From a phage: a stretch of DNA of 64,000 nucleotides. Numbering within the stretch: position 1 is the stretch's first letter; each line of letters begins with the position of its first letter. The notes below the pieces were generated by a model. The model did no database searches. It worked only from the letters and a program-made list of their open reading frames with translations, and was not told where the DNA came from. The position numbers and the translations under genes are program-made. This document shows positions 4,828 through 58,070 of this stretch, in pieces. The stretch lies in assembly GCA_024672315.1 (NCBI GenBank), contig GCA_024672315.1_4714.1, one strand, 5' to 3'.

Positions 4828-4862
4828 CCTTCTCCCCAACCCGATGAGGGAAGGGGAGAAGG
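4828..4862. terminator. GC-rich stem-loop, repeat-family member (putative bidirectional terminator)
   Basis: Perfect 10-bp stem CCTTCTCCCC/GGGGAGAAGG between convergent genes; flanked by CATAG upstream and TATG downstream; A13 run at 4802-4814. Confidence 0.45.
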
Positions 4863-4879
4863 GCTATGCGCTATTTAAT

Positions 4880-5155
4880 TTATTTCGAGGTTAACCACGA
4901 TTCAATTGTGGTGAGTTTGCTTCTCAGTACGCGCCAACTAGGGTGTGGTGGGATCACAGCGCCATTGTCGATTACGGTTAGCTGAACCTGGTACTTCTGT
5001 TGCATACGTGCTACCGTGTCGCTTATCGAGAGGAAAAGCTGGTAACGTTCATATGCCGTCAGTTCACTGTCCTGTTGAACTGCGTTGGCTGCTAACGTAA
5101 TTTCGCGTAAGTCCTTTGCATCCACAGAGACGGTAATGAGTTTATATTGACTCAT
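4880..5155 (-). CDS. hypothetical protein (91 aa)
   Basis: ORF with AAGGA RBS 6 nt upstream of ATG; convergent with previous gene across hairpin 4828-4862. Confidence 0.6.
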   Translation of the reverse strand: MSQYKLITVSVDAKDLREITLAANAVQQDSELTAYERYQLFLSISDTVARMQQKYQVQLTVIDNGAVIPPHPSWRVLRSKLTTIESWLTSK

Positions 5156-5216
5156 ACGGTTTCCTTATCAACTAGGGTATTGCAAATACAATACCCGTCG
5201 TCGGACGATAAGTTAA

Positions 5217-7775
5217 TTACTGCTCATCACGTTCCAACAGATACTCGGAAGCGGTAATACCGTTTACCGTACGCACTGCTTTCAGACGAGTATCATCACT
5301 CAGAATCACGGTAACAGATTGCAGACCTTTTACTTTGGTTTCGAAGGTCTTGAACACCTGATCCAGCATACGAGCAATGCTTGGGTTGGTTGCAGCCGAT
5401 GCGTGAGTGTAACCGCTCTGGTTCAGCTTCAGAATCTTGGCGTTGGTCGGTACGCGAACAACAACATGCGGACGCATCGCGAATACGCTGTGATTGAACC
5501 AGTAAGCATCGTTGCTATCTTCGTCGGTAACGATGTCTGGATTAACACGCATATCCTCGATAGCCGCATCCGCCAAACGACGTTCGATTTCATCGGCGTC
5601 CAGAGAGCCATCTTTCTCCAGTTCTGCACGATACTCACTCATGGCGACCAGATGACGCTCACGATTCGCTGCAGATTTTTCGTGAGCGGCTTTCAGGTAG
5701 TCATGCATGTTGTACAGTTCAGCCATGGAAAGACGAATGTTCCATTGACCTTCGCCATCACGATTGCAGTAGAGACACTTCAGCATGTTGACCCAGGTGT
5801 AGTAGCAATTGGAGAATTCATCTTCAATGAACTTCTGGTCCATTTTAAGATCGTGAATCAGCCAACCGGACAGTTCTCCGATATCATCAACGAAGCTAGA
5901 GATGGTGGTTTCAGAGAAGTTCTTCGGTACGATACGTTTGATCAGCTTATTGACGTCTTTGGTCATGCTATCGTTCAGGAAATGCCAGATACGCAGAGGA
6001 ATGACATCTCGATACTGTTGCATGATCTGACGATAAGCTTTGATATCGTCGCTACGACCTTTATCAATAGACAACGCATCCAGGAATTCATGGATTGCAT
6101 CCAGCTCCTTGTCGGTATAGGTTCCCAGATAGGAATTGACCGTAGCCAGGAATGCTAATGCGTCGTTTTGGTTGACGTCGGTGTTGGTCTGCTGAATGAT
6201 TGCCACTGAAGCTTTGGTTTCAGCATCCTCAACGCTTGACGCTGCGATTGCGTCGGTGACGGTAAACAGTTTCATTTCGCGCTGCTCGCCGACAACGATT
6301 GGTTCGCGTTGAACCGGTTTGTTAAGGCTAACACGAACAACTTCTGCTTGCGCGATGCGATCCAGTTTTGCCATTTCCTGCTCTGCCATACGACGAGCGG
6401 TTGGATCTGATTCAAGTTCGATGTATTCCACTTCTTCCTCCGTGAGGGATGTAATGTCAACAATGGTTTCATGAAGAATTCCGTTTTCGTCGATACGTGC
6501 CCGACGAGCGAAGTGTCTGAAGTCATACAACGTCGGCCAACGACTATTAGGTGCAAAGTCTTTGGCTTTCAGACGCATCTGCATAAATTCTTCATGTTGA
6601 ACAACACGACCGTAACGCTTAGCATCTTCGGTCGCATCAATTGGATTAACGGTCTTTGTTACCGTAGCAGAACGAGCCGTACGAACGGGTTCCGGTTTCA
6701 CCTGCGCAGGTTCAGGTTGAACGGGTTTCTGCTGCCCAGCCTTAACATGCCATTCTGGCTCTTCGTACTGTTCAGCAAACTGTTCAGCCGCTGCAAAGAT
6801 ATCGTTGATACCACCAATATCTCCTTCAGGATTTGTCGAGTAAATCCGTGGTTGTGGTGCCTCGTAACGCGGCGCTGTAGCAGCAGGTGCATCATCAACG
6901 ATAGGATCGTCATCACCAACATCATACAAACGGTTGAACGCACAATCCTTCGAATCGATGTACGATGGCGCTTGTGGTTGAACAACCGTCGGCCGAGGTT
7001 GTGCGCCGTATCCTGGCGTTGTTGGAGCCATACCACGCATAACTGCCGGATTAGGCTGGTATTGCGGTTGCGGATAGGTTCCACCATACATGGCGTACGC
7101 TGGCTGTTGTGGTTGACCGTACCCGCCACTAACCATCGCGCTTGCTTGCGGGCCACGATAAGTCATCCCCATCTGCATCACCTGCTGCTTCAAACCACGT
7201 GACTTCTGCGCGATTTGTGCCAGGCTCCCGCTTTTATTCAGCTGCGTGTACTTATTCGCGGCTTCCGGGTTAATGCGTGATAATTCAATCGCGCGATAAT
7301 ATTCCGGGTACTGATTCGGTTCAAAGAGCCACGTTACAAGATGATACAGCGCAACTGTGCTCACGGCAGCAGAGACGATCTGGTCGTCGGACGCGTTCTG
7401 CGGCATCGGGTTGATGTAAGAGAACACGTTCCAACAACAGTCTTCAACAAGCGATTCCATCATCATATCGTTATTGGTATAACGTGCGACGAATTCGGTT
7501 TGTATTTTGTCTTGCTGAGCGAAGTCTTTCAGGACATTAAAGATAGCTTGACGGATTTTGACGATCGTTGCTTCTTGGGTGATGAAGTTATAGTTCTGCT
7601 GATATGAGGGTTGTTGGTATTGTGGTGGTTGATAGGCGTTATTCGGATATGCGCCGTACGGCGATTGCTGATACTGTTGCTGACGAACCTGTTCAGCCGC
7701 ATAATTAACCGTGCTCGTATAAGGGTTTTCGCTATAGCCCATTTGTTGATACATGTTGTTACTGCCATTATACAT
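5217..7775 (-). CDS. hypothetical protein (852 aa) with Q/Y/N/P/G-rich low-complexity N-terminal and internal regions
   Basis: Long ORF, AAGGAT RBS 8 nt upstream of ATG; N-terminus MYNGSNNMYQQMGYSENPY...QPPQYQQPSYQQNYNF and internal GGYGQPQQPAYAMYGGTYPQPQYQPNP segments. Confidence 0.8.
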   Translation of the reverse strand: MYNGSNNMYQQMGYSENPYTSTVNYAAEQVRQQQYQQSPYGAYPNNAYQPPQYQQPSYQQNYNFITQEATIVKIRQAIFNVLKDFAQQDKIQTEFVARYTNNDMMMESLVEDCCWNVFSYINPMPQNASDDQIVSAAVSTVALYHLVTWLFEPNQYPEYYRAIELSRINPEAANKYTQLNKSGSLAQIAQKSRGLKQQVMQMGMTYRGPQASAMVSGGYGQPQQPAYAMYGGTYPQPQYQPNPAVMRGMAPTTPGYGAQPRPTVVQPQAPSYIDSKDCAFNRLYDVGDDDPIVDDAPAATAPRYEAPQPRIYSTNPEGDIGGINDIFAAAEQFAEQYEEPEWHVKAGQQKPVQPEPAQVKPEPVRTARSATVTKTVNPIDATEDAKRYGRVVQHEEFMQMRLKAKDFAPNSRWPTLYDFRHFARRARIDENGILHETIVDITSLTEEEVEYIELESDPTARRMAEQEMAKLDRIAQAEVVRVSLNKPVQREPIVVGEQREMKLFTVTDAIAASSVEDAETKASVAIIQQTNTDVNQNDALAFLATVNSYLGTYTDKELDAIHEFLDALSIDKGRSDDIKAYRQIMQQYRDVIPLRIWHFLNDSMTKDVNKLIKRIVPKNFSETTISSFVDDIGELSGWLIHDLKMDQKFIEDEFSNCYYTWVNMLKCLYCNRDGEGQWNIRLSMAELYNMHDYLKAAHEKSAANRERHLVAMSEYRAELEKDGSLDADEIERRLADAAIEDMRVNPDIVTDEDSNDAYWFNHSVFAMRPHVVVRVPTNAKILKLNQSGYTHASAATNPSIARMLDQVFKTFETKVKGLQSVTVILSDDTRLKAVRTVNGITASEYLLERDEQ

Positions 7776-7809
7776 TTCTTACGATCCTTTTTATTTATTC
7801 GGTTATGTG

Positions 7810-9609
7810 TCAATCGATTATGTCGTGATCGTTAATTTCTACAATTTCTTCATCGAATCGACCGACGTCTTTCTTCAAGCCTGCATTGGTTGCTGCAACG
7901 TCATTTGCAATTTGTGGAGTAATGATTAACCGACCACGCTCGTCGATAGGTGCGTACATACTGAACTTCTGACGTCCGGTTGGTTCGGAGTGCGGAAGAT
8001 TCAGATAGCTTGCACAGAACGGGATGGAACCACTAACCAAACGACTCTCGTCAGCCAATGCAGCACCGCCTGCATTTTGGCTCTGGAGAACAACATGTGT
8101 GCTCACTTTGAACAGCATGCAATCACCAGGTGACTGAATCGATGTTGCCACTTTCTCACGTTTATCACGATTGCTCTGGATATTGAGAATCGCTTCCGTT
8201 GCAACTTGATTTCGCAACGCCTTCTGTACATCGCGATTGGTCATCTCTTTACGGTTGTTCTGTCGTTTACCACGTTCTGTGGTTTTAAGATGGAACCCCA
8301 GTTTAAAGATGCTCTTACGCACATCCTCCATGACATATTCCAACACCATCAGTTCCTTACCGAACATCGTCGTGGTATCAACACGACTCATTTCGATAGT
8401 AACATTATCAATCAGATACGCCATAAATTCGTAGAAGTCGTCGCAAGGAATATTTTCCTGTTTGAACTTCTTCTGTTGAATCTCGTCAACGTAAAGATCG
8501 AGACTGTCGATGTGGTGGTTTACATCACGCAACAAACGCGCATCCGCATTGTTGTTATTAAAGATAATCAAACCGAGTAATGTACGCCAATGGTCTGGCG
8601 CATTCGCGAACTCTTCAACCGGATAGTCTTCCGGAAAACGATCGTAATAACGGTCGATGAGATATAAGAACGCACCGACAAGGCCAAGAACAATACGTTC
8701 CGTGCCTCCACGTCTTACAGCGATTTGAATATCAGGATGTTTATAACGTACAGCGCTAGCGCTACGGCTTTTACCGCTTTTGCTGATACTAAAGCCTTTA
8801 GGAATAACCCCCATGGTGCGATAGATTACCCATTGGTCGCGCGGAAAATCACGTTCAGCAAGGTTCCGTCCGGTTACGGCTTCGACACCTGCAAAACGTC
8901 GGAAACACTCACCCACCCCGTACTTCGCAAAGAGATAGTGACCCAGTGTGGTTACGCTGGTGTGGTTGATGTTGTCACCGTTCACTTTACTTTGTTTGGT
9001 AAGATGATAGATTTGCGACCAGGGTAATGACAGGTAATGACGATAATCGATACCGGTCGGTGTATCATTGCTCAGGAACTGATACGGTGTACGTTTAACC
9101 GTGATTTTGTCACGCGGAAGCATGATGAACGCCATGTCTTTCGTGTAACTGATTACCGGGTCAGCGAGCACCGCACTGAGAATGAAGTTCGCACCACGTA
9201 GACGCATTTTACCACCCTGACCTACCGCGGGTAATAGGAGAGGGTGTCGGATAATGCAGTAGTCCTTTCCGGGTTCACGACGGTCACCTGATTCCATCGC
9301 GCCGTACCAGCGGAATTCTAGCATCACCATAAACACATCGGAAGGCGCAAGGTCGAAGGTCAGCTTACCGCTATCCTTCCCTTTGGTTTTCTTTCCTCCG
9401 CTTAAGTAGTGGAACTGTTCGCGGGCCATACAGCGACGCAGGCCATGATACACCAGATCCTTAGGTAAACTATCTTTGCTGTTCCGCCAAAGACGATCAA
9501 CATAGGACTCAACATCTTGCATCTTATCGACGACGATGTTGCGTGCTATCTTCTCGTTCATCTTCGGTGCAAGCTCAGCGACAGCTTTGCAGAATCTAGG
9601 ATCCATCAC
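7810..9609 (-). CDS. hypothetical protein (599 aa)
   Basis: Long ORF; strong AAGGAG RBS 6 nt upstream of ATG at 9609. Confidence 0.8.
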   Translation of the reverse strand: MMDPRFCKAVAELAPKMNEKIARNIVVDKMQDVESYVDRLWRNSKDSLPKDLVYHGLRRCMAREQFHYLSGGKKTKGKDSGKLTFDLAPSDVFMVMLEFRWYGAMESGDRREPGKDYCIIRHPLLLPAVGQGGKMRLRGANFILSAVLADPVISYTKDMAFIMLPRDKITVKRTPYQFLSNDTPTGIDYRHYLSLPWSQIYHLTKQSKVNGDNINHTSVTTLGHYLFAKYGVGECFRRFAGVEAVTGRNLAERDFPRDQWVIYRTMGVIPKGFSISKSGKSRSASAVRYKHPDIQIAVRRGGTERIVLGLVGAFLYLIDRYYDRFPEDYPVEEFANAPDHWRTLLGLIIFNNNNADARLLRDVNHHIDSLDLYVDEIQQKKFKQENIPCDDFYEFMAYLIDNVTIEMSRVDTTTMFGKELMVLEYVMEDVRKSIFKLGFHLKTTERGKRQNNRKEMTNRDVQKALRNQVATEAILNIQSNRDKREKVATSIQSPGDCMLFKVSTHVVLQSQNAGGAALADESRLVSGSIPFCASYLNLPHSEPTGRQKFSMYAPIDERGRLIITPQIANDVAATNAGLKKDVGRFDEEIVEINDHDIID

Positions 9610-11257: not shown

Positions 11258-11290
11258 TTTTTCTATTCGCAACGATAAACGGCATAGAAA

Positions 11291-11320
11291 CCTCCCCCAA
11301 CCCTTACGGGCTGAGGGAGG
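11291..11320. terminator. GC-rich stem-loop, repeat-family member
   Basis: CCTCCCCCAACCC-TTAC-GGGCTGAGGGAGG (13-bp stem, 2 mismatches), about 100 nt downstream of the capsid-candidate stop; flanks GCATAGAA / TTATG. Confidence 0.4.
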
Positions 11321-11419
11321 CTGACTTATGTATCACGGTGCCGGATGAATGTCCGGTGCAATGAAACCATCCGCAACGTTGTCGTCAAGAATATCATCCA
11401 ACGAAGCAGCTACGGTAGT

Positions 11420-16062: not shown

Positions 16063-16090
16063 ACGCAAAAAAAAAAAAGATTGTGCGGTT

Positions 16091-16122
16091 CCCTCCTCCA
16101 ACCCGTAAGGGAAGGAGGAGGG
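16091..16122. terminator. GC-rich stem-loop, repeat-family member
   Basis: CCCTCCTCCAACCC-GTAA-GGGAAGGAGGAGGG between convergent genes; A12 run at 16067-16078; TTATG downstream. Confidence 0.45.
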
Positions 16123-16138
16123 GTTATGACCGCTTTGA

Positions 16139-17747: not shown

Positions 17748-17775
17748 GAGTAACGAGAAATAAGACAGCATAGAA

Positions 17776-17807
17776 CCCTCTCCCTTCCCTGATGGGTTGG
17801 GAGAGGG
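17776..17807. terminator. GC-rich stem-loop, repeat-family member
   Basis: CCCTCTCCCTTCCC-TGAT-GGGTTGGGAGAGGG; flanks GCATAGAA / ATATA; adjacent to conserved promoter-like motif 17709-17747. Confidence 0.4.
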
Positions 17808-17813
17808 AATATA

Positions 17814-18446: not shown

Positions 18447-18462
18447 GATGTACTCACTACAG

Positions 18463-23679: not shown

Positions 23680-23730
23680 CGCAGATTCCTGTTTGAAAGA
23701 TAAGATATCACATGATGGTCGACAGCATAA

Positions 23731-23752
23731 AGCCCACCCCGAAGGGCGGGCT
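23731..23752. terminator. GC-rich stem-loop, repeat-family member
   Basis: AGCCCACCC-CGAA-GGGCGGGCT; flanks GCATAAA / TTTATGC are themselves inverted repeats. Confidence 0.4.
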
Positions 23753-23767
23753 GTTTATGCGTACGGA

Positions 23768-29561: not shown

Positions 29562-29667
29562 TTGGGACTCCTACGTAGGAAAATCTTGGCGGGTGATCAT
29601 GTCCGCCATTTACCTTCTGAACCGTTGATTCAGAAGTCAAAAGATAACCGGATACCAACGCCATAAA

Positions 29668-29699
29668 CCTTCCTCCAACCCAACAGGGAAGGAGGAAGG
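29668..29699. terminator. GC-rich stem-loop, repeat-family member
   Basis: CCTTCCTCCAACCC-AACA-GGGAAGGAGGAAGG between tandem minus-strand paralog genes. Confidence 0.4.
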
Positions 29700-32349: not shown

Positions 32350-32373
32350 AAGATAAACCTGAGCGGCATAGAA

Positions 32374-32405
32374 CCCTCTCCCAACCCGTCAGGGAAGGGA
32401 GAGGG
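32374..32405. terminator. GC-rich stem-loop, repeat-family member
   Basis: CCCTCTCCCAACCC-GTCA-GGGAAGGGAGAGGG immediately after the highly expressed 32428-33750 gene; flanks GCATAGAA / AATATG. Confidence 0.45.
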
Positions 32406-32427
32406 AATATGTCAGTTTATTAACTGA

Positions 32428-40627: not shown

Positions 40628-40648
40628 AACAAAATAGCATGAGCATAA

Positions 40649-40680
40649 CCCTCCTCCAACCCAACAGGGAAGGAGGAGGG
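40649..40680. terminator. GC-rich stem-loop, repeat-family member
   Basis: CCCTCCTCCAACCC-AACA-GGGAAGGAGGAGGG between convergent genes; flanks GCATAA / AATATG. Confidence 0.45.
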
Positions 40681-40689
40681 AATATGCTG

Positions 40690-43476
40690 TTATCTTACGT
40701 TATTGCTATTCTGCTGTTCGCTGAACCAACCGTACACCTTGAGATCGGTACCGTATTTCAATGCGATATACGCATTCAATGCAGCACAGAACAAAGACAC
40801 GAATGCCCATATCAGCGAAGGATCAACATCTTCCGTTACCACCGGGAGAGTATTATCCGGTTCCCACGATGGAGAACTGTCCATGAACGTCGTGTACCAT
40901 TCCCGCCGTTGTTCTTCAGTGGTAAAGTCGCTATGAGGTTCCAACGCTTCTTTTGCCAGACGTCGATATTCGAACACATACGTTGCGAAAGCCGATGAGT
41001 TACCAGATTCGCCTTCATAGTTCGGATCCACCGCACAACAGAGTTCTGTGGAATCTAACAAAGCAATCGCTTGTGTGATGCTGTCGGCAGTGCCTGCACC
41101 ATAGAGCTCGATAGACCGCGAAAGCTTTTCACAGAACGTATTTAACGCGGCAGGATTGGACACCTGAAGGTCAAGGCCTAATGTCCACGGATAGTTACTG
41201 AACACGCCCGTAAACCGCGGCAGGACACCCAACAGATGTTGTCCGATTACAGCACGGTTATAAACAGCCCGGTTATAGACTTGAAACGCAGCCTCCAAGG
41301 CTTGGTTATAATGACGACGAAGTTCGTCACGCGAGTTGCGGAATCTGTTTGCCGCAAGACTCGTGGCTGCGACGCTACAAACATCGTAATTGGTGGACGA
41401 GAGCACAGTTTCGTTAAGATCGAACGATTCCTGTTTCAACGATCCGCTAACCGCTGCTGCTTCGCTGTTTGCTTTATCGACAACTGTACTCAAAGCGTTG
41501 ATGTAACGCTTAGCCCGGACTTCCAGCCATTGTGCGATACCGAGAACATCCACAGCGGCTTTAGCAAGGTCACGTGCGTTCACGATTTCGTTCTTCAATG
41601 CCCCTAAACCTTTATTCTCAGGCGAAGAGGCTTGTTGACGAATCATGCTGTTCAACATGGTAAGCAGATTATCCAACTCATGTCCACTGACCTTGTTACG
41701 TGCATCGGTAACTGGTCCTTGCAGGAATTTACGACAACCATCGTTGTATCGAATCAGTTTGTCCACATCGATAGATTCGTTCGTGGATTCCTTGAACTGA
41801 TCCTTCAATTCTTCACGGTAGTCATGGATTTCACTTGCGAGATTATCGATAGTGATACCATCGTGTCCAAGAAGAACTTTATTGAAGTTACCTTTCTCGA
41901 ATGCAAGAGCAAGACCTTCACGAATCTTAGCGAGTTTATCCTGATCGAGTTCGCGACCGTTCGATAGCTCTTTCACTTCCGAGCTGATTAGTGCCGCAAC
42001 GTTACCCAGATTGTCGGTAACGCCTTTGAATGTTCCCGACCAGATCGTTCCTGCTTCAGCATATTTCGCAATGGTCTGAATACCGACGGTGTGCAGCGAC
42101 GCTAAACGTTTCTTCGTGCCTTCGGTAAGCAGAGCGTCTTTAGCTCGCGTAAGCTGGCTGTTATTCGCTTCCGCCTGCTGAATCGCCGCTTTCGCACTTC
42201 CATTACGCCAGCTCTTAACCAGCCAATCGACCAAACGTTTTAGGATGTTGACGGTGTATTCCATCGTCCGCCGTAACGTTTCCCACGCGCTTTCTGCGGT
42301 ATAGATGCCGTACCCTTCCTGCACGAGATCGGTACGTGTGTATCCGTCGGCCGCTTCGATTTCTTCTTGCGTTTTATCCCAAAGCTCTTCGCTACGAACA
42401 GCAGTAGCGGTTTCAGATACCGACATAACAAGCTCAGCAACAGCTTCAGCGTAAGTCAGTACGGTACGCACACATTGCACTAACATGCGCTGGTAAACGA
42501 TACGTGCGTTTTGCAGACGTGCGATAACCGCTAAATAACCGATGTTATCAAGATTTTCATCGGTTTGAGCAGATTCAACGCGTTCTAACAGTTGTTTAAC
42601 TAGCGCCGCTGTTTCTGGGTAATCGTTCACGACGTCACGCATGATTCGTGATGCGAAAACCGCAGTACCTAAAACGGTGAGAAGTGTTTTACCGTCCCAT
42701 TCTTTCGGTGCCGCTACCGATTCAGCAGGGATGAGATTTCCCGCTTGGTCGAAGTACGGCATAAGGACATTGATATCAGTCGACGGAACAGCAGTAATTG
42801 CGTTGTACTCTTCATCCACGCCATCGTTGCCAGACGGTTGTAATGCGAGCGCTTGTTCGAGGATTTTGCGGTCAACAGCGTAAAGCGCCGACAGAGCCTG
42901 TGTTACCGCAACCAGATCAACGATCGGCGACCAGAGCTGTGCGAGCTTACCTTCGTATTTCTGTACAGCGATAGCAAGGTCTTCTTTTACGTCTGGATGA
43001 TCGATCAAACCACCCAATGTTTCATGGATGGCAGAAAAACGTTCAGAATGCGCTTGAGTCAATGCGGTAAAATCGTCAACGTACGACGCATTTTCTTCAA
43101 GACGCGTAAGTTCCTGCTCCAGAAGATCTTTTACTTGCGTGGCGGATGCGTTTCTCAACTGTTCCCCGATAATCGCGATGGCTTTATCGACAACACGGCA
43201 GGCTTCATTGAAACCGGTCGTTGAAGGTAACTCGGTCCATAATGCCAGCGGCTTACCTTCCATTGCGTCAGGAAGGGAATATGACAGCATTGCTAGTTGT
43301 TGACGTGATACCTGTTTGTCACGATGTAATGTTTCTTTCAACGCCAGAAGCTCATCAAGACCCACGCTGCTAGGGATCGTGGGATGTGATACGGCGTTGA
43401 TATTTCCTGTCAATGACTCAAGAACCAATAAACCATTTTCAGCGGAAGATAACCCTGCTTTAAGGTATTTGTTCAT
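40690..43476 (-). CDS. large hypothetical protein (928 aa) with C-terminal hydrophobic segment; possible head-protein family member
   Basis: Long ORF; GGAG RBS; helix motif similar to paralog family (AWETLRRTMEYTVNILKRLVDWLVKSW); hydrophobic segment LIWAFVSLFCAALNAYIAL near C-terminus. Confidence 0.8.
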   Translation of the reverse strand: MNKYLKAGLSSAENGLLVLESLTGNINAVSHPTIPSSVGLDELLALKETLHRDKQVSRQQLAMLSYSLPDAMEGKPLALWTELPSTTGFNEACRVVDKAIAIIGEQLRNASATQVKDLLEQELTRLEENASYVDDFTALTQAHSERFSAIHETLGGLIDHPDVKEDLAIAVQKYEGKLAQLWSPIVDLVAVTQALSALYAVDRKILEQALALQPSGNDGVDEEYNAITAVPSTDINVLMPYFDQAGNLIPAESVAAPKEWDGKTLLTVLGTAVFASRIMRDVVNDYPETAALVKQLLERVESAQTDENLDNIGYLAVIARLQNARIVYQRMLVQCVRTVLTYAEAVAELVMSVSETATAVRSEELWDKTQEEIEAADGYTRTDLVQEGYGIYTAESAWETLRRTMEYTVNILKRLVDWLVKSWRNGSAKAAIQQAEANNSQLTRAKDALLTEGTKKRLASLHTVGIQTIAKYAEAGTIWSGTFKGVTDNLGNVAALISSEVKELSNGRELDQDKLAKIREGLALAFEKGNFNKVLLGHDGITIDNLASEIHDYREELKDQFKESTNESIDVDKLIRYNDGCRKFLQGPVTDARNKVSGHELDNLLTMLNSMIRQQASSPENKGLGALKNEIVNARDLAKAAVDVLGIAQWLEVRAKRYINALSTVVDKANSEAAAVSGSLKQESFDLNETVLSSTNYDVCSVAATSLAANRFRNSRDELRRHYNQALEAAFQVYNRAVYNRAVIGQHLLGVLPRFTGVFSNYPWTLGLDLQVSNPAALNTFCEKLSRSIELYGAGTADSITQAIALLDSTELCCAVDPNYEGESGNSSAFATYVFEYRRLAKEALEPHSDFTTEEQRREWYTTFMDSSPSWEPDNTLPVVTEDVDPSLIWAFVSLFCAALNAYIALKYGTDLKVYGWFSEQQNSNNVR

Positions 43477-43491: not shown

Positions 43492-43522
43492 CCTAGGTGG
43501 AGGCCAATAACCTCCACCTAGG
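43492..43522. terminator. 12-bp perfect palindrome with 7-nt loop (putative terminator or regulatory hairpin)
   Basis: CCTAGGTGGAGG-CCAATAA-CCTCCACCTAGG in the 80-nt gap between two large minus-strand genes, 16 nt upstream of the downstream start codon. Confidence 0.4.
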
Positions 43523-51131: not shown

Positions 51132-51170
51132 CAGGTCCCCCTACTTGTAATGAGTGGGTGAACTCTCTTT

Positions 51171-51565
51171 AATTGCTGGAAACCTTTAATGCCCCTCCAC
51201 ACCACAACGCAATCCGAAAGGGTAAACGTGATGGTTGTCGAAAGACAGAAAAAAGTTGGAGGGGATTACCTATGTTGCAATAAAAGCCACCGCTTTCTTG
51301 GATAACGAAAGATGACGGTGGTACTAAGGGTAGAAGATAGAAATAAGGTAACCGTAGCAGCGAAGACCCTACGGACTGTCGTGACCGACTCGATGAGTTG
51401 GCGTGGTTAACACGGACAGGCTACGGGTAACGTTCAACGACCATCCGGTTGCGCGGAGTAGGAGAATTAGGATGTTCTCCGAAAAGGGAGAAGTCGGTCG
51501 AGGTGTTGTAGAAACACCGTTGGGTTTGCTAACGCGAATATAAGACAGGCTAAGATATGGTCTAT
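51171..51565 (+). ncRNA. putative group I intron catalytic core (P, R and S conserved elements)
   Basis: ORF-poor 0.8-kb region containing, in canonical order, a P-like element AATTGCTGGAAACC (51171-51184), R-like GTTCAACGACCA (51432-51443) and S-like AAGATATGGTC (51552-51562); R GACCA and S TGGTC can pair as P7 with a compensatory change relative to the canonical GACUA/UAGUC. Splice sites not determined. Confidence 0.5.
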
Positions 51566-51912
51566 TTTTCGTTGTGTTCATGTATAGAAATTACTGAACC
51601 ATCGTAAGAGCTCGATATATCTTCAAGCTATCCAAATGGGCAGATCCTGTTGAATCTATCCAGAGCATGTGTTTTTCGTGAGCTCTCGCGCATTGAGGGC
51701 GTCTCTGACTATCAATTCAGGAAGTTAGGTATCAACTTTATTACCGGAGGTAAAACGAACGCTGTAGACTTCTGTAGAATCGTTTATAAAGCACCGTCGA
51801 TGTTTGAACTTTTAGAACATTTCGATGCGACGCGCCCAAAAGAGGAAGCGCGGACCATCGAATGAATCAAGTATGTTGATCCTCGTTTAACAAAAAGAAA
51901 ACGCATGCGAAG

Positions 51913-51944
51913 CCCCTCCCCCTGGCGGAAGCCGGAGGGAGGGG
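51913..51944. terminator. GC-rich stem-loop, repeat-family member
   Basis: CCCCTCCCCCTGGC-GGAA-GCCGGAGGGAGGGG closing the plus-strand island and abutting the stop of the 51951 minus gene; TTTATG downstream. Confidence 0.4.
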
Positions 51945-51950
51945 TGAGGT

Positions 51951-52436
51951 TTATGCGCGTTCGTTGCCAACCGTTACTTTGTAGTCAGCGTCGGTTAAGA
52001 AAATAGACAGGAATCCATGTTCTTTGCAAATCTGACTAAGGATGTCAGCAATGATTTCGTTGATCATCGGTTTGTTTGCAAGGGCATAGATGTACCCGGG
52101 TGTAAAAGAAAGTGCATGATTGATCATAGGCTCATGAGAAGCCAAGATAAGGATCACGTGATGCTTCCCATCGTCGGTAACGACCGCTTGCGTAGACACG
52201 AAGAAATCAGTGAAGCAGCAGCGATCACAGGCTTTAGGTATATACAAATCACCCAGAGCTTCGTCGCGTGCTTTTATGTGTGTTTCAGGGGTGATGCTGC
52301 TAAGTTGATCTTCAGCGAGATCCAAGACATCCTCAATCGTTTTAAGAATAGCGTTGCGGAAATCCTCGCGGTAGAATGGGATGATATCACGATCGTTCAT
52401 GTAATCGCCGGATTCGATAGTAAAGTTGATGTTCAT
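51951..52436 (-). CDS. hypothetical protein (161 aa)
   Basis: AGGAG RBS 6 nt upstream of ATG; stop overlaps hairpin flank at 51951. Confidence 0.7.
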   Translation of the reverse strand: MNINFTIESGDYMNDRDIIPFYREDFRNAILKTIEDVLDLAEDQLSSITPETHIKARDEALGDLYIPKACDRCCFTDFFVSTQAVVTDDGKHHVILILASHEPMINHALSFTPGYIYALANKPMINEIIADILSQICKEHGFLSIFLTDADYKVTVGNERA

Positions 52437-52999: not shown

Positions 53000-53037
53000 T
53001 GTTTCTTTTCCTGTGTAGTCGGTATACAGCCCTTCCC

Positions 53038-53073
53038 CGGCCTTGATGGCTAGGGAAGGGGCTATGCTACGTT
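53038..53073. terminator. GC-rich stem-loop, repeat-family member
   Basis: AGCCCTTCCC...GGGAAGGGGCT with inner GCC/GGC stem; TATG downstream. Confidence 0.35.
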
Positions 53074-53074: not shown

Positions 53075-53473
53075 TTATGCTTCGCAATCAGCTGAAGGCG
53101 TCGCGCCTTTCTTACCAGCGATACGCCAAATCCGACACGCTGGGTAATGGTTAACCTCTAGAGAGCAAGGAATGTTATATTTCTCTTCCAGCGCATAAAG
53201 ACATTTCGTTAGCTGCTCCAGCGCGTTCTCGTCGTGTCGTAACGCGTGGTGGCCTAATCGATGTTGGTCGTTCTTTATATACGCCTCGAAGAGAACATGT
53301 TGGCGATGTACGCTGACGTTTACAGCCTCGAGTATAGCTTGGTCGAGCATACGACTAAAGCACATCAACGAGTCAGATACGTTTTCTCGCTTAACCAGAT
53401 CGATCATGGTGGGAATATACGAATGGTCGATGTTATCGATGACCGCTTTAGCGACGGAATCAGCAACGTTCAT
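53075..53473 (-). CDS. small hypothetical protein, paralog pair member A (132 aa)
   Basis: Start moved to ATG at 53473 (MNVADSVAKAVIDNIDHS...) with AGGGA RBS, which aligns with the paralog N-terminus MSIVESIVKAVNDNIDHP; shared EEKYNIP-SLEVN motif. Confidence 0.7.
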   Translation of the reverse strand: MNVADSVAKAVIDNIDHSYIPTMIDLVKRENVSDSLMCFSRMLDQAILEAVNVSVHRQHVLFEAYIKNDQHRLGHHALRHDENALEQLTKCLYALEEKYNIPCSLEVNHYPACRIWRIAGKKGATPSADCEA

Positions 53474-53509
53474 CTTTTTAATCCCTAGTTTGTTATTGAT
53501 CACGTATAT

Positions 53510-53905
53510 TTACTCTTTGACGTCAGTTGTCGTTTCGACATGCTTCTCACTACTGACGTACCAGAGCAGGTACGTTGGGAAAAGATTGACCTCTAAGCTA
53601 AATGGGATATTGTATTTCTCTTCCATTTTACAGAGATGTTCTTTAAGTAAATTTCTCGCGTCTCTGTCACCACGAACAGAGTGCCAGTCTAGTTCTTTGT
53701 TCTCCTTTACCAGGACCTCTACGATGATACGTTGCTCGTGAACCTCGGTTTTCACAGTGAAAAGTAAATCGCTGCTATCAAAACGGGTAAAACGAATGTA
53801 TGAACCAGGTGTTTTTTCTTGTTTGATAATATCGATCATGGTAGAAATGCGCGGATGATCGATGTTGTCGTTAACAGCTTTAACGATGGATTCTACAATG
53901 CTCAT
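53510..53905 (-). CDS. small hypothetical protein, paralog pair member B (131 aa)
   Basis: AAGGAT RBS; paralog of 53075-53473. Confidence 0.7.
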   Translation of the reverse strand: MSIVESIVKAVNDNIDHPRISTMIDIIKQEKTPGSYIRFTRFDSSDLLFTVKTEVHEQRIIVEVLVKENKELDWHSVRGDRDARNLLKEHLCKMEEKYNIPFSLEVNLFPTYLLWYVSSEKHVETTTDVKE

Positions 53906-53938
53906 TTTTTTATCCTTAATGTTATCGATTTGTAAATA

Positions 53939-54706
53939 TTACTTATTTTTGCTTTCTTTATAGACAGTTGTTACCCACGATGGGAAAGCCGGATGGAAAC
54001 AGAGCGTGAACGTAACTGTCGTATCGTATTTAAACGCACAGTTCACTAACCGGGTATCGAACGTTTTCCTTAGACCATCATCATCGTTATCGATGACAGC
54101 CATATCTCTTAATATCCCAAGCACGTTAACGCCGTCGAGTGTCTGGGTTACAACAAGTCGTCGTAATGGCCCGCATGTATAGTTACGTACAAATCCTTTC
54201 TTCGGGTCCGATACCCTGTTTAACGCATCGTGATTTTTGATGAATTCATCGGCGATCCAATAGATTTGTTCCCTTGCTTTATCGGGATCGTATTCTGCTA
54301 ATAGTTCCTTCGTGTCGAACGTTATCACGTTATTATCATTCGATTCAGAAGGGAAACATAAAACTAAACGAACAGGGTATTCGTATTGATCTGTTCTTGT
54401 TTCGAAAGCATTAGCTAAACACGGCTTGTATGCCTTTGCGTCGACATTGTCCAAACATGGATGCAATAATGCGTGAATAACGGCACCATCGTCAGTTAAA
54501 CCGAATTCCAGAAATTGTACCCTATCAGTATCCGCTACGGTTTTCTGAAGATACGCTTTACCGTTTACGATATCGGTATCCCACATATCGTCGTTTAACG
54601 ATTCTTCAAACTTATCGAATATATGGTTTACGAGATTGACGAGTTCATCAATACGGCACTGTTGGTTGAATTCGATTAATCGCTGAACTTTATCTTTGAT
54701 AGACAT
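53939..54706 (-). CDS. hypothetical protein, probable member of tandem paralog array (255 aa)
   Basis: AAGGGG RBS; segment VDAKAYKPCLANAFETR...PVRLVLCF resembles VDAIRRLADVANNAFTKS...PITLTLKF of the next gene. Confidence 0.65.
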   Translation of the reverse strand: MSIKDKVQRLIEFNQQCRIDELVNLVNHIFDKFEESLNDDMWDTDIVNGKAYLQKTVADTDRVQFLEFGLTDDGAVIHALLHPCLDNVDAKAYKPCLANAFETRTDQYEYPVRLVLCFPSESNDNNVITFDTKELLAEYDPDKAREQIYWIADEFIKNHDALNRVSDPKKGFVRNYTCGPLRRLVVTQTLDGVNVLGILRDMAVIDNDDDGLRKTFDTRLVNCAFKYDTTVTFTLCFHPAFPSWVTTVYKESKNK

Positions 54707-54708
54707 GA

Positions 54709-55167
54709 TTACCCCTTAGCTCCTTCTTCGTCTGGAGAGTATTCCATCGTGTAGAATTCATAACCGTCGGAAAACTTGAGTGTTAATGTAATAGGGAAAT
54801 CGCACGGCATAGCTGATTTCGTAAATGCGTTATTAGCAACATCCGCCAACCGACGTATAGCATCAACCCCGCTGACGCTGAATGGTAGTTGTATGTTGAT
54901 AAGGATACGATGCTTGTAAACATAGAAAACAACGGTACTGTCAAGATAAACGCTATGAAACGGTATTGTTGGGATGCGTTCCACGATGGTAAAATACGTG
55001 CCGTCATTATCGCTATGTCCCATCGACCAAATATCGGATTTACGTAGATTTTGTTTGAGGGATTCGATACTTCGAGTGACGGTCTCAGCAACAGGCGTGA
55101 CGTAAGTGTCTCTATGCGAGTCGAAAAGTTCGTTGACGTTAGATTCGAATGAATACATTGTTGCCAT
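54709..55167 (-). CDS. small hypothetical protein, tandem paralog (152 aa)
   Basis: AAGAGG RBS; start overlaps upstream stop by 1 nt (TAATG); shares LPFSV-G motif with 55167-55628. Confidence 0.7.
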   Translation of the reverse strand: MATMYSFESNVNELFDSHRDTYVTPVAETVTRSIESLKQNLRKSDIWSMGHSDNDGTYFTIVERIPTIPFHSVYLDSTVVFYVYKHRILINIQLPFSVSGVDAIRRLADVANNAFTKSAMPCDFPITLTLKFSDGYEFYTMEYSPDEEGAKG

Positions 55168-56194: not shown

Positions 56195-56237
56195 ATTCAC
56201 CTCTTTTTTAATCTAAATGTTAGTTGGGATAGGGCGA

Positions 56238-56897: not shown

Positions 56898-56915
56898 GGT
56901 GGGGCGAACCCCACC
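56898..56915 (-). terminator. intrinsic (rho-independent) terminator
   Basis: 7-bp GC stem GGTGGGG-CGAA-CCCCACC followed on the minus strand by a T7 run 3 nt after the stem; 25 nt downstream of the 56941 gene stop. Confidence 0.6.
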
Positions 56916-56940
56916 AAAACGTCAGACACACGCAGGAAAA

Positions 56941-57426: not shown

Positions 57427-57508
57427 GCTCTTATCACTAAGGTAATGCTTACGCGTCGCGTTCATGATGCATGGCATCATGAAGGTAATATAGTCGTGAA
57501 ATAAACTG
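57427..57508 (-). promoter_or_regulatory. conserved AT-rich motif (split copy), candidate phage promoter
   Basis: Same motif as 17709-17747, split by a 33-nt insertion carrying two small palindromes (ACGCGTCGCGT; TCATGATGC-ATG-GCATCATGA); minus-strand reading contains exact TATATTAC. Confidence 0.35.
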
Positions 57509-57540
57509 CGTTAACACGAAATAAAAACAGCATAGAAACC

Positions 57541-57584
57541 TCCTCCCCCATCCTTCAAGAGGACGGTGGGAAGAGGGAGAGATT
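57541..57584. terminator. GC-rich stem-loop, degenerate repeat-family member
   Basis: CCTCCTCCCCCA...GGTGGGAAGAGG imperfect hairpin; flank GCATAGAA upstream; adjacent to conserved promoter-like motif. Confidence 0.3.
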
Positions 57585-57984
57585 AAATGTCGTGGACGGC
57601 AACGCCGTTTAACCAACAATACAGCTTAACGCGACAGGAATACCGCTTCGTTGCAGCAACCATTTCATCGCGTAAACGCTGGTAGATTTCATCCTGGTGT
57701 TCACGATCAATGGGGTAATCAGCCCAACATTCGATCATGACGTCACCATTCGTCAGAATCGTCGTACGCATCCTGTCCTGGATACGGCGGTCTTTCCCGG
57801 CATTAGGGAAATACATTCCTTCGGTACGAATAAGGTCGCCGCAGGGCATGACTAACCATTCGTTCGTTTTGCCGGTATTCTTATAATCCATTACGGCTTG
57901 CATTGCGGTGTCAACGCTAAAAGAAACATAATTCCAAACGGATGTCCAACGATAGATTGCGGGTTGTTCGAGTGTTTCGTTCAT
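57583..57984 (-). CDS. hypothetical protein (133 aa)
   Basis: ORF with ATG and AGGA-like RBS. Confidence 0.65.
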   Translation of the reverse strand: MNETLEQPAIYRWTSVWNYVSFSVDTAMQAVMDYKNTGKTNEWLVMPCGDLIRTEGMYFPNAGKDRRIQDRMRTTILTNGDVMIECWADYPIDREHQDEIYQRLRDEMVAATKRYSCRVKLYCWLNGVAVHDI

Positions 57985-58038
57985 GGAGTGCTTTTCCTAT
58001 TTTTATTTTCTGCACAGGATAAATTCAACGGCATAAAG

Positions 58039-58070
58039 CCCTTCCCTGCCCTTATATGGGGCGGGAAGAG
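58039..58070. terminator. GC-rich stem-loop, repeat-family member (imperfect)
   Basis: CCCTTCCCTGCCC...GGGGCGGGAAGAG with flanks GCATAAAG / TTTATGACC. Confidence 0.3.

What the first reader, a model, noticed from the sequence alone, without database searches (positions are those of the whole stretch)
4828..58070. Family of at least 12 GC-rich extended palindromes with conserved TATG-containing flanks at gene boundaries
Seen: near-identical hairpins of the type CCCTCTCCC-AA-CCC-loop-GGG-AA-GGGAGAGGG at 4828-4862, 11291-11320, 16091-16122, 17776-17807, 23731-23752, 29668-29699, 32374-32405, 40649-40680, 51913-51944, 53038-53073, 57541-57584 and 58039-58070. All lie in intergenic gaps, never inside genes. 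Most are flanked by GCATAGAA or GCATAAA on one side and (A/T)TATG on the other, so a TATG follows the hairpin on both strands. Only a minority are followed by a U-run. Inference: a phage-specific bidirectional terminator or terminator-promoter element. A conserved TATG at late-promoter start sites has been reported for phiKZ (from memory, not verified here).
Basis: partly seen in the sequence, partly recalled or inferred. Interest (0 to 1): 0.6.

Follow-up and report, generated by a model that had tools for sequence, protein, structure and literature searches.

The report
Jumbo-phage terminator hairpins with TATG tail
These repeated GC-rich hairpins are most likely the transcription stop signals of a Goslar-like nucleus-forming jumbo phage, the same hairpin-plus-TTATG design already mapped experimentally in phage phiKZ, so the finding is real and useful for annotation but not a new kind of element.

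Summary
The window is about 95% identical to E. coli jumbo phage Goslar. All 12 hairpins exist, and 12 of the 13 strongest hairpins lie in the 6% of the window that is intergenic. They occupy 4 of 4 convergent, 0 of 5 divergent and 9 of 45 tandem gene junctions, usually 4-35 nt after a stop codon.

Evidence that the RNA hairpin is under selection in the sense direction:
- Stems covary, and G.U pairs and UUCG loops favour the sense strand.
- In the sense direction the stem is followed after 1-4 nt by TATG-C-Y-G-T.
- Hairpin plus tail equals the conserved phiKZ terminator motif mapped by ONT-cappable-seq (61 terminators). One window copy matches that consensus directly, and the element follows the major head gene in phiKZ, PhiPA3, Ea35-70 and Goslar.

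Best reading: phiKZ-type intrinsic terminators for the phage's own RNA polymerases, bidirectional between convergent genes. TATGCYG almost never occurs without a hairpin, and it persists where no gene follows. In Xoo-sp14 and RP12, however, it is separated from the hairpin by a T-run. The Goslar clade has its own two-tier hairpin form. This is a new member of a known kind, of moderate interest.

The parts
4819..4868 (.). Element 1. Two-tier hairpin 4828-4862 (CCTTCTCCCC-AA-CCC-GATGA-GGG-AA-GGGGAGAAGG). TATG at 4865-4868 (+) and 4822-4819 (-). Sits at the convergent junction gp036(+)/gp037(-).
   Evidence: identical in Goslar
11279..11330 (-). Element 2. Hairpin 11291-11320, 99 nt after the major head gene stop. 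Sense (-) tail TTTC-TATGCCGT at 11286-11279. Three G.U pairs form only in the sense RNA.
   Evidence: (Goslar orthologue: -29.2 sense vs -18.5 antisense); syntenic with the phiKZ gp120 terminator
16091..16128 (.). Element 3. Two-tier hairpin 16091-16122 at the convergent junction helicase(+)/gp044(-). TATG at 16125-16128 (+). On the - strand it is followed by a distal T12 run (A12 at 16067-16078).
17765..17807 (-). Element 4. Two-tier hairpin 17776-17807, with its central part flipped relative to Goslar. Sense tail TTC-TATGCTGT at 17772-17765. It lies 6 nt after the stop of a window-specific inserted gene (17814-18446).
23722..23759 (-). Element 5. Hairpin 23731-23752 with a UUCG loop in the sense RNA. 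Sense tail T-TATGCTGT. Positions 23722-23750(-) match the published phiKZ terminator consensus.
   Evidence: 3 mismatches, 0 expected by chance; annotated 'putative transcriptional terminator' in the Goslar record
29658..29699 (-). Element 6. Two-tier hairpin 29668-29699. Sense tail TT-TATGGCGT. It lies 10 nt after the upstream stop.
   Evidence: loop AACA vs GTAA in Goslar
32363..32411 (-). Element 7. Two-tier hairpin 32374-32405. Sense tail TTC-TATGCCGC. Antisense TATG at 32408-32411.
40644..40690 (.). Element 8. Two-tier hairpin 40649-40680 at the convergent junction gp063(+)/gp064(-). Tails AA-TATGCTGT (+) and T-TATG (-).
43492..43522 (-). It has no adjacent TATG tail.
   Evidence: two compensatory double substitutions relative to the Goslar orthologue
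51913..51955 (.). Element 9. Hairpin 51913-51944 at the convergent junction between the unannotated DNA-polymerase downstream exon (stop codon 51863-51865, +) and gp070(-). TATG at 51952-51955 (+).
53028..53066 (-). Element 10. Hairpin 53028-53064, 10 nt after the stop of a window-specific inserted gene block (53075-54706). The sense tail is degraded (TATA-C; Goslar has TATG-T). Antisense TATG at 53063-53066.
57527..57578 (-). Element 11. Long imperfect hairpin at about 57539-57578, 4 nt after the gp076 stop. Sense tail TTTC-TATGCTGT followed by a T-run.
58028..58076 (-). Element 12. Hairpin 58039-58070. Sense tail CTT-TATGCCGT at 58035-58028. Antisense TATG at 58073-58076.
7810..9606 (-). gp039, a full-length homologue of phiKZ GP123. 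GP123 is the nvRNAP beta-like subunit whose pocket reads non-template TATG in phiKZ. This is the candidate trans-acting reader of the tail.
   Evidence: E = 4e-57, 24% identity. Mapped through that alignment, 7 of the 14 pocket residues listed in PMC12809450 section 2.5 are identical and 2 are aromatic swaps.

Best explanation
The family is the Goslar-lineage version of the sequence-conserved intrinsic terminator of phiKZ-like (chimallivirus) jumbo phages.

Proposed mechanism: when the phage's own multisubunit RNA polymerases transcribe the element, the RNA folds into a very stable hairpin with a C-rich 5' arm and a G-rich 3' arm. The hairpin is followed by a short, weakly pairing U-U-(N)-U-A-U-G stretch in place of a long U-tract. 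Transcription ends around the G of TATG, which lies 5-7 nt past the stem.

Because the element and its flanks are palindromic (GCATA-AA-hairpin-TT-TATGC), one copy can stop transcription from both sides. That is how it is used at all four convergent gene junctions of the window. Between co-directional genes it closes one transcription unit before the next.

Shown here: structure, placement, directionality, covariation, and identity of design with phiKZ. Inferred: that RNA 3' ends actually form here in this phage, and which polymerase responds.
For: 1. Placement.
- Window: hairpins occupy 4/4 convergent, 0/5 divergent and 9/45 tandem junctions, and lie 4-35 nt after the upstream stop in 7 of 9 tandem cases.
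- Goslar: 15 of 16 convergent gaps >20 nt have one, against 3 of 20 divergent gaps. 28 of 29 hairpins at or below -26 kcal/mol are intergenic in a genome that is 92.9% coding.

2. RNA-level, sense-directed selection.
- Sense RNA is more stable than antisense in 26 hairpins against 9 (Wilcoxon p = 0.006).
- G.U pairs number 37 in sense against 18 in antisense.
- UNCG tetraloops number 8 in sense against 0 in antisense.

3. Structure conserved by compensation.
- 97.6% of cells are paired, 5 of 12 pairs change on both sides, and 0 of 500 shuffles reach the observed score.
- Orthologues differ in loops but not in stems. Hairpin 43492 has two compensatory double changes.

4. Tail.
- TATG follows the hairpin in 23/36 tandem cases in sense against 9/36 in antisense, and in 23/30 directions at convergent sites. 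The logo is TT-TATG-C-Y-G-T.
- 24 of 27 intergenic TATGCYG sites abut a hairpin.

5. Same element in phiKZ, where 61 such terminators were mapped by ONT-cappable-seq with the motif BCCYCCCCHWWDGGGRRGGBYTTATKYYGT (PMC10914365).
- The consensus hits window 23722-23750(-), with 0 hits expected by chance.
- phiKZ carries CATAG-GCCCTCCC-TTCG-GGGAGGGC-TTTATGTTGT after its major head gene, and it has the same palindromic flanks.
- Ea35-70 and PhiPA3 show the same arrangement.
- In 201phi2-1 the related motif terminates in vivo, and elongated stems are stronger (PMC11512511).

6. Canonical hairpin+T-run terminators and sigma70 promoters are not enriched in the window, as expected for host-RNAP-independent transcription.
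Against: No transcript-end data exist for Goslar or this phage, so the assignment rests on analogy with phiKZ and 201phi2-1 and on sequence statistics.

Most copies lack the U-tract that defines a classical intrinsic terminator.

The stem sequence and the A.A (U.U in sense RNA) internal loop are more conserved than a purely structural signal requires. That could mean an additional sequence-specific partner, or recent copying between sites.

ONT 3' ends in phiKZ cannot by themselves distinguish termination from processing.

Almost all tandem contexts are on one strand, so 'sense' and 'minus strand' are confounded. Base composition would, however, bias the G.U result the opposite way (G+T is slightly higher on the + strand).
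Confidence: 0.78

Rival explanations
1. Composite terminator-promoter. The hairpin terminates, and the TATG(CYGT) tail is a working nvRNAP late-type promoter whose G is the +1 of the next transcription unit. Each late unit would then be insulated and restarted at the same spot. This adds to the best explanation and does not exclude it.
For: - TATG with G = +1 is necessary for phiKZ late transcription (PMC4666361), and it is read by GP123 (PMC12809450).
- The window encodes the GP123 homologue, with half of the pocket residues retained.
- The CYG extension is better conserved in tandem contexts (C 15, Y 20, G 18 of 23) than at convergent sites (G 7 of 23).
- In the GC-rich phages Xoo-sp14 and RP12 a normal hairpin+T-run comes first and TATGCCGTC follows 10-16 nt later, so the tail behaves as a separable module.
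- 18 of 19 TATGCYG sites that point at a downstream gene start follow a hairpin.
Against: - The tail is present in 23 of 30 directions at convergent junctions, where it would only drive antisense RNA.
- TATGCYG is almost never found without a hairpin, even in promoter-only divergent gaps (1 case).
- TATG shows no clear sense bias in hairpin-free tandem gaps (23 vs 18).
- phiKZ P119L and the TATGs upstream of the window's major head gene have no hairpin.
- The phiKZ late-promoter logo has no conservation after TATG.
- A GC-rich duplex occupying -4 to -35 would be an odd place to melt.
Confidence: 0.3
2. RNA 3'-end protection or processing element. The hairpins mainly stabilise mRNA 3' ends against exonucleases, or mark endonucleolytic cleavage at the A/U-rich tail, and do not release the polymerase.
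For: - Same placement and the same sense-strand RNA selection as for termination.
- Lack of a U-tract.
- 3'-end sequencing in phiKZ does not separate the two processes (PMC10914365).
Against: - 201phi2-1 terminators carrying the related motif reduced downstream reporter expression in vivo in a terminator trap (PMC11512511).
- Near-universal presence at convergent junctions is what is expected if polymerase collision and antisense read-through must be prevented.
Confidence: 0.12
3. Recombination or mobile cassette boundaries, like T4-type PeSLs. The repeated near-identical palindromes exist chiefly because they mediate gene-cassette exchange, or spread by copying.
For: - Both large indels between the window and Goslar abut a family hairpin (17813-18463 and 53084-54722).
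- The hairpin next to insertion 1 has its centre flipped.
- Two window loci (29668, 40649) carry the loop AACA where their Goslar orthologues have GTAA, and the same AACA copy exists as a paralogue at Goslar 15778. This suggests exchange between copies.
- PeSLs are a precedent (PMC4122927).
Against: - All 13 hairpins are at orthologous positions in Goslar.
- There are no terminal repeats or target duplications.
- Whole-gene indels must fall at junctions, and 13 of 54 junctions carry a hairpin, so two of two has about a 6% chance (my arithmetic).
- Directionality, G.U bias and UUCG loops are not explained by a DNA-level role.
This is likely a side effect of being a dispersed repeat, not the primary function.
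Confidence: 0.1
4. DNA-level site: a cruciform or dimeric-protein binding site for replication, packaging or organisation of DNA in the phage nucleus.
For: - Perfect dyad symmetry extending into the flanks (GCATA...TATGC).
- Invariant unpaired AA/AA and CCC/GGG core.
Against: - Strand-asymmetric features that double-stranded DNA cannot sense: G.U vs C.A, UNCG loops and the sense-biased tail.
- Strict association with gene 3' ends, and absence from divergent gaps.
Confidence: 0.04

Closest known systems
phiKZ conserved intrinsic terminator motif (Putzeys et al. 2024, PMC10914365; 61 terminators, BCCYCCCCHWWDGGGRRGGBYTTATKYYGT)
   Same: - C-rich 5' arm, short loop (often UUCG) and G-rich 3' arm.
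- The stem is followed at once by (Y)TT-ATG-YY-GT.
- Located after gene ends, including after the major head gene.
- Palindromic CATAA...TTATG flanks are also visible in the phiKZ sequence.
- One window copy matches the consensus outright.
   Different: - Seven window copies (18 in Goslar) are longer two-tier hairpins: a 9-bp outer stem, an invariant 2x2 A.A internal loop, then CCC/GGG.
- Position +1 after TATG is mostly C (TATGCYGT) rather than K-Y-Y.
- There is no transcript mapping in this phage.
201phi2-1 terminator motifs A/B (PMC11512511)
   Same: It has a conserved-sequence terminator resembling the phiKZ motif. Co-occurring motifs give elongated stems, which were the strongest terminators in vivo. 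This parallels the elongated two-tier and flank-extended hairpins here.
   Different: The motif sequences of 201phi2-1 could not be inspected because its supplements are not held. The host and lineage differ.
Bacterial bidirectional Rho-independent terminators (A-tract, hairpin, U-tract; general knowledge)
   Same: They have a dyad-symmetric hairpin with mutually complementary flanks, and are used between convergent genes to stop both polymerases.
   Different: The flanks here are CATA-A / T-TATG rather than A- and U-tracts, and the tool's canonical scan does not pick them up. The stem sequence itself is conserved. The element is presumably read by phage-encoded split-subunit RNAPs.
phiKZ late promoter core TATG (+1 = G) read by nvRNAP subunit GP123 (PMC4666361, PMC12809450)
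   Same: The same tetranucleotide is present, and a GP123 homologue is encoded in the window.
   Different: The tail is tied to a hairpin, extends to CYGT, and occurs where no gene follows. Validated late promoters such as P119L have no hairpin and no downstream conservation.
PeSL composite terminator/promoter motifs of T4-like phages (PMC2839356, PMC4122927)
   Same: They are a dispersed intergenic stem-loop plus start-signal module at gene boundaries. Indels between close relatives abut them.
   Different: The sequence is unrelated. PeSLs carry a sigma70-type early promoter for host RNAP and sit in hyperplastic early regions, whereas these elements sit mainly among structural genes of a host-RNAP-independent phage.

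Membership tests
phiKZ-type sequence-conserved terminator | Hairpin with a C-rich 5' arm and a G-rich 3' arm (CCYCCCC-loop-GGGRRGG) | tested here: met
   All 12 elements have a pyrimidine/C-rich 5' arm and a G-rich 3' arm. The consensus hits 23722-23750(-) with 3 mismatches and 0 expected by chance.
phiKZ-type sequence-conserved terminator | Tail YTTATKYYGT immediately 3' of the stem, in the sense of the terminated gene | tested here: met
The sense tail is TT-TATG-C-Y-G-T. It occurs in 23/36 tandem cases in sense vs 9/36 in antisense, and in 23/30 directions at convergent sites. 24 of 27 intergenic TATGCYG sites abut a hairpin. The spacer is 1-4 nt in most.
phiKZ-type sequence-conserved terminator | Located downstream of genes, mostly intergenic, and at convergent gene pairs | tested here: met
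   Window: 4/4 convergent, 0/5 divergent, 9/45 tandem junctions. Goslar: 15 of 16 convergent gaps.
phiKZ-type sequence-conserved terminator | Host genome is a phiKZ-like phage with its own multisubunit RNAPs | tested here: met
   The window is 95% identical to Goslar. RNAP beta-like subunits are annotated. gp039 is a GP123 homologue, E = 4e-57.
phiKZ-type sequence-conserved terminator | Transcript 3' ends map to the element | not testable with these tools
   No transcript-end mapping of Goslar turned up in the paper searches.
Canonical Rho-independent terminator | GC-rich RNA stem-loop selected on the transcribed strand | tested here: met
   Sense is more stable in 26 vs 9, with G.U 37 vs 18. 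UNCG loops are 8 vs 0. Covariation supports the helix.
Canonical Rho-independent terminator | U-tract (at least 5 T in the 8 nt right after the stem) | tested here: not met
   None of the family hairpins in 28-44 kb is returned by the hairpin+T-run scan, whose count equals the shuffles. Tails are TT(C)TATG. T-runs occur only distally in a few copies (4803-4813, 16067-16078, after 57527).
phiKZ late (nvRNAP) promoter | TATG with G as the start site | tested here: inconclusive
   The motif is present in all 12 elements, but start sites cannot be mapped here.
phiKZ late (nvRNAP) promoter | Lies upstream of a gene it would transcribe, independently of other signals | tested here: not met
   It is present in 23/30 directions at convergent junctions with no gene downstream. 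It is almost never hairpin-free. There is no clear sense bias in hairpin-free gaps.
phiKZ late (nvRNAP) promoter | A cognate TATG-reading pocket in the beta-like subunit | tested here: inconclusive
   From a pairwise alignment only, 7 of 14 listed contact residues are identical (including the Phe stacking on G+1) and 2 are aromatic swaps. Tyr399, Asn398 and Ser402 are not conserved.
PeSL-like recombination cassette | Indels between close relatives are bounded by the repeat | tested here: inconclusive
   2 of 2 large indels abut a hairpin, but n = 2, and whole-gene indels must fall at junctions.
PeSL-like recombination cassette | Adjacent sigma70-type early promoter | tested here: not met
   There is no sigma70-like enrichment: 16 found vs 21.3 in shuffles.
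REP/MITE-like mobile palindrome | Insertion polymorphism, terminal repeats or target duplications | tested here: not met
   All 13 hairpins are at orthologous sites in Goslar. No such ends were seen.

The most novel reading that the evidence does not exclude
The TATG tail is read during elongation by the same pocket of the nvRNAP beta-like subunit (the GP123 homologue, gp039 in this window) that reads TATG at late promoters.

The G of TATG lies 5-7 nt past the stem. When the hairpin forms, the active site is therefore at or just past that G, and the non-template TATG is where the pocket expects it. Sequence-specific capture would pause the enzyme and replace the missing U-tract. After RNA release, it would leave an already open complex able to restart at the same G.

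This would be a termination-reinitiation switch conserved across chimalliviruses. It would explain three things: why these terminators have a conserved sequence, why the spacing is fixed, and why TATG alone is 'necessary but not sufficient' as a promoter.
Probability: 0.15. Interest if true: 0.75.

Novelty: new member of a known kind. Interest (0 to 1): 0.36.

Why it matters
It gives a sequence-based transcription-unit map for Goslar-type phages, for which I found no transcript-end mapping. Only one of the window's twelve elements is annotated as a terminator in the Goslar record.

It shows that the hairpin-plus-TTATG(YYGT) terminator grammar first seen in Pseudomonas phage phiKZ extends to a very distant E. 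coli chimallivirus (major head protein 25% identical), and that the tail TATGCCGT(C) recurs in Erwinia, Xanthomonas and Ralstonia phages.

It also turns a standing puzzle into a simple in vitro experiment. The puzzle is how a polymerase whose only known specific contact is TATG chooses where to start and stop. The experiment is to mutate the tail behind a terminator hairpin and measure both release and re-initiation.

Practically, the elements are ready-made insulators for engineering nucleus-forming phages.

Tried and rejected
- My first mismatch-penalised hairpin finder missed most members because of the conserved A.A internal loop. I replaced it with energy scans.
- Rfam at gathering thresholds found nothing in the window.
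- The supplementary TSS/TTS tables of the phiKZ and 201phi2-1 papers are not held, and Ceyssens et al. 2014 could not be fetched. The decisive check of whether phiKZ TSSs coincide with terminator tails therefore could not be done.
- A scan of 2.9 million viral contigs for the exact two-tier core returned only Goslar-clade genomes plus one locus shared by three contigs. Those three contigs proved to be Firmicute phage-like DNA with no Goslar proteins. I treat that as a look-alike GC-rich terminator, not a relative.
- I considered that the G-rich 3' arm plus ATG is a ribosome-binding site for a mini-ORF, and rejected it as the main role. The downstream frames are not conserved, and the tail occurs in both orientations.
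- I considered ChmC, the chimallivirus RNA-binding protein, as a hairpin reader. Its eCLIP peaks are near start codons, and no motif was found (PMC11077065).
- Pfam gave no hits for the four window-specific inserted genes.

Full report
**What the window is.** A 15-kb piece of the window matches Escherichia phage vB_EcoM_Goslar at 95% identity and matches nothing else in the phage collection. Whole-window alignment gives five collinear blocks at 90-98% identity. Goslar is a 237-kb nucleus-forming phiKZ-like jumbo phage (a chimallivirus). Its record annotates several RNA polymerase beta-like subunits, the nuclear shell protein and PhuZ tubulin. I mapped genes in the window by homology to the Goslar proteins and added the ORFs of two window-specific insertions.

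**Checking the observation.** All twelve hairpins are in the sequence.
- A motif-blind scan of folding energy in 44-nt windows on both strands finds 13 hairpins at or below -24 kcal/mol. Twelve of them lie in the 6.2% of the window that is not coding.
- The same scan of the whole Goslar genome (92.9% coding) puts 49 of 61 hairpins at or below -22, and 28 of 29 at or below -26, in intergenic DNA.
Goslar has 18 of these.
- The other five are different C-rich/G-rich hairpins with the same flanks.
- Two coordinate pairs need trimming (53028-53064 and 57539-57578).
- One more strong intergenic hairpin (43492-43522) was missed.
- TATG lies within about 7 nt of the stem on each strand in 9 of 12 elements, and on at least one strand in all 12.

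**Where the elements sit.** In the window they occupy all 4 convergent gene junctions, none of the 5 divergent junctions and 9 of 45 tandem junctions. In tandem junctions they lie 4-35 nt after the upstream stop codon in 7 of 9 cases. In Goslar, 15 of 16 convergent gaps longer than 20 nt contain one, against 3 of 20 divergent gaps. That is the distribution expected of signals that end transcription, not of signals that start it.

**Selection acts on the RNA, in the sense direction.**
- For 36 Goslar hairpins between co-directional genes, the sense RNA is more stable than the antisense RNA in 26 cases against 9 (Wilcoxon p = 0.006). It contains 37 G.U pairs against 18. Base composition would bias the other way.
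- Among 21 four-base loops in those contexts, 8 read UNCG (7 UUCG) in sense and none in antisense.
- In the two-tier subfamily, 97.6% of cells are paired and 5 of 12 pairs change on both sides. No shuffle out of 500 reaches the observed covariation, and slid registers collapse to 51-70% pairing.
- Between the window and Goslar, stems are identical or change by compensation (two double changes at 43492), while loops change freely.

**The flank is one composite signal with the hairpin.**
- Oriented in the sense of the upstream gene, the stem is followed by (Y)TT, then TATG, then C (15/23), Y (20/23), G (18/23) and T.
- The tail is directional in tandem contexts: 23/36 in sense against 9/36 in antisense (chi-square about 11 by my arithmetic).
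- It is present in 23 of 30 directions at convergent junctions, and absent from the few hairpins in divergent gaps (0/6).
- Of 27 intergenic TATGCYG sites in Goslar, 24 are immediately preceded by a hairpin at or below -14 kcal/mol. Only one hairpin-free copy faces a gene start.
- 30% of intergenic TATGs have such a hairpin, against 3.8% of coding TATGs. The G of TATG lies mostly 5-7 nt beyond the last paired base.

**Comparison with what is known.**
- In phiKZ, ONT-cappable-seq mapped terminators. 61 of them share the motif BCCYCCCCHWWDGGGRRGGBYTTATKYYGT, which the authors describe as a stem-loop followed by TTAT (PMC10914365).
- 201phi2-1 has a closely similar motif A (n = 59). Elongated stems from co-occurring motifs were the strongest terminators in a reporter assay (PMC11512511).
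- The published consensus hits the window once, at 23722-23750 on the sense strand, with none expected in shuffles.
- Reading phiKZ itself, the gap after the major head gene contains CATAG-GCCCTCCC-TTCG-GGGAGGGC-TTTATG-TTGT. Many other phiKZ elements show the same palindromic CATAA...TTATG flanks.
- The window has its element 2 in the equivalent place, after its own major head gene.
- I looked at the same gap in eight more chimalliviruses:
  - Ea35-70 and PhiPA3 have the hairpin abutting TATGCCGT.
  - Xoo-sp14 and RP12 (58-62% GC) have a hairpin with a normal T-run, then TATGCCGTC 10-16 nt further on.
  - SPFM4, PCH45, CR5 and Yong XC31 have a hairpin plus T-run only.
- The window's canonical terminator and sigma70-promoter counts equal the shuffles, which fits transcription by phage polymerases.

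**Terminator, promoter or both.** The phiKZ late promoter core is TATG with G as +1, necessary but not sufficient (PMC4666361). A 2026 structure shows the non-template TATG held in a pocket of the beta-like subunit GP123 (PMC12809450). The window encodes the GP123 homologue, gp039 (E = 4e-57). Through that pairwise alignment, 7 of the 14 listed pocket residues are identical, including the Phe that stacks on G+1, and 2 are aromatic swaps.

Evidence against a simple promoter reading:
- The tail is kept where no gene follows.
- It is almost never found without a hairpin.
- TATG has no clear sense bias in hairpin-free gaps (23 vs 18).
- Validated P119L, and the TATGs upstream of the window's major head gene, have no hairpin.
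- phiKZ late promoters show no conservation after TATG, whereas the tail does.

Evidence in favour of a separable second function:
- The Xoo-sp14 and RP12 arrangement.
- The better conservation of CYG in tandem contexts than at convergent sites.

I therefore rate termination at 0.78 and an added promoter role at 0.3.

**A more novel reading that is not excluded.** The geometry places the G of TATG about where an intrinsic terminator would release RNA (the 7-9 nt rule is general knowledge). The same GP123-type pocket could capture TATG during elongation and pause the enzyme in place of a U-tract. It could then leave an open complex that restarts at that G. Nothing here tests this. I give it 0.15.

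**Lineage-specific features and evolution.**
- The exact two-tier core occurs only in Goslar-clade contigs among 2.9 million viral contigs. The one exception is a look-alike locus in Firmicute phage-like DNA.
- The AA/AA internal loop and the CCC/GGG core are nearly invariant, while the outer stem occurs in several co-varying versions.
- Two window loci carry loop AACA where Goslar has GTAA, and the same AACA copy exists elsewhere in Goslar. The hairpin at 17776 has its centre flipped.
- Both large indels relative to Goslar abut a hairpin.
- This recalls the PeSL terminator/promoter cassettes of T4-like phages (PMC4122927). With two events, however, it is only suggestive.

**Verdict.** This is a real, non-random and functionally coherent family. 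It is best explained as phiKZ-type terminators, bidirectional at convergent junctions, in a Goslar-like phage. It is a new member of a known kind, with a lineage-specific two-tier form and an unresolved but testable relation between the TATG tail and the polymerase's TATG-reading pocket.

Noticed in passing
window 51067-51585 (+) and 51608-51865 (+): The 820-nt 'gene-free' gap after the HNH/NUMOD endonuclease ORF (49941-51131) contains a full-length group I intron match (RF00028, 43.7 bits, below the gathering score of 50, E = 1.3e-9). An open frame follows, ending at TGA 51863-51865. Its 78-aa product is homologous to the C-terminal part of the DNA polymerase of about 229 other jumbo phages. 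In Goslar (82967-83200) the stretch is unannotated. The DNA polymerase gene gp068 therefore appears to be interrupted by an endonuclease-carrying intron with an unannotated downstream exon.
   Followed up: partly
window 57480-57505 (-), core TATATTAC at 57492-57485; Goslar 2567, 113797, 142800, 160791, 166069, 172978, 201944, 226695 (all -): There is a conserved AT-rich motif, TTTCACGGC-TATATTAC-YTANGTGA, 39-131 nt upstream of minus-strand genes. Eight of the ten Goslar copies are intergenic, including one upstream of the nuclear shell (chimallin) gene. It fits the description of jumbo-phage early (virion RNAP) promoters as a conserved motif of about 10 nt (PMC7598289). In the window it is adjacent to the inverted repeat TTCATGATGC/GCATCATGAA (57461-57483). 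TATATTAC also follows the major-head terminator in phiKZ, PhiPA3 and Yong XC31.
   Followed up: partly
window 17813-18463 and 53084-54722: The window has two insertions relative to Goslar: one 210-aa gene (17814-18446, -) and a block of three genes (53075-54706, -). None of the four has a Pfam match. Each block lies immediately upstream (in the sense direction) of a family hairpin.
   Followed up: partly
window 17776-17807, 29682-29685, 40663-40666: The centre of hairpin 17776 (TT-CCC-TGAT-GGG-TT) is inverted relative to its Goslar orthologue (AA-CCC-GTAA-GGG-AA). The loops of 29668 and 40649 are both AACA where Goslar has GTAA, and this matches a paralogous Goslar copy at 15778. This suggests flipping and copy-to-copy exchange among the repeats.
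   Followed up: partly
window 17583-17771 (-), Goslar gp047: The annotated 62-aa ORF starts at the ATG of the terminator tail (TATGCTGTC), with the G-rich hairpin arm as its apparent Shine-Dalgarno sequence. It is only 90% identical between the two phages, while its neighbours are 97-100% identical. It may not be a real gene. Two other Goslar genes (at 117667 and 166925) also start at a tail ATG.
   Followed up: no
Goslar genome-wide: TATG is about twice as frequent on the sense strand of genes (3.3 per kb) as on their antisense strand (1.6 per kb), and is densest in intergenic DNA (3.4-7.7 per kb per strand, depending on gap type and strand). Whether this reflects codon usage or avoidance of antisense starts or stops was not examined.
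   Followed up: no
window 4803-4813 and 16067-16078: A11 and A12 runs lie between the stop of a + strand gene and the hairpin at two convergent junctions. For minus-strand transcripts they form a long U-run after the tail. Similar runs flank several convergent-site hairpins in Goslar (36838, 146605, 200229).
   Followed up: no
Goslar 237279-237292 and 27-40; Xoo-sp14 and PhiPA3 major-head downstream gaps: The 12-mer TATGCCGTCAAG (followed by an A-run in Goslar and Xoo-sp14) recurs after terminator hairpins in three very distant chimalliviruses. In Goslar it lies at both ends of the linear record. This is longer conservation than the TATG core and is unexplained.
   Followed up: no
window 56903-56925 (-): There is one classical-looking intrinsic terminator (GGTGGGG-UUCG-CCCCACC followed by UCUUUUUUU in the sense RNA) between gp074 and gp075. 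Both terminator styles therefore coexist in this phage.
   Followed up: no
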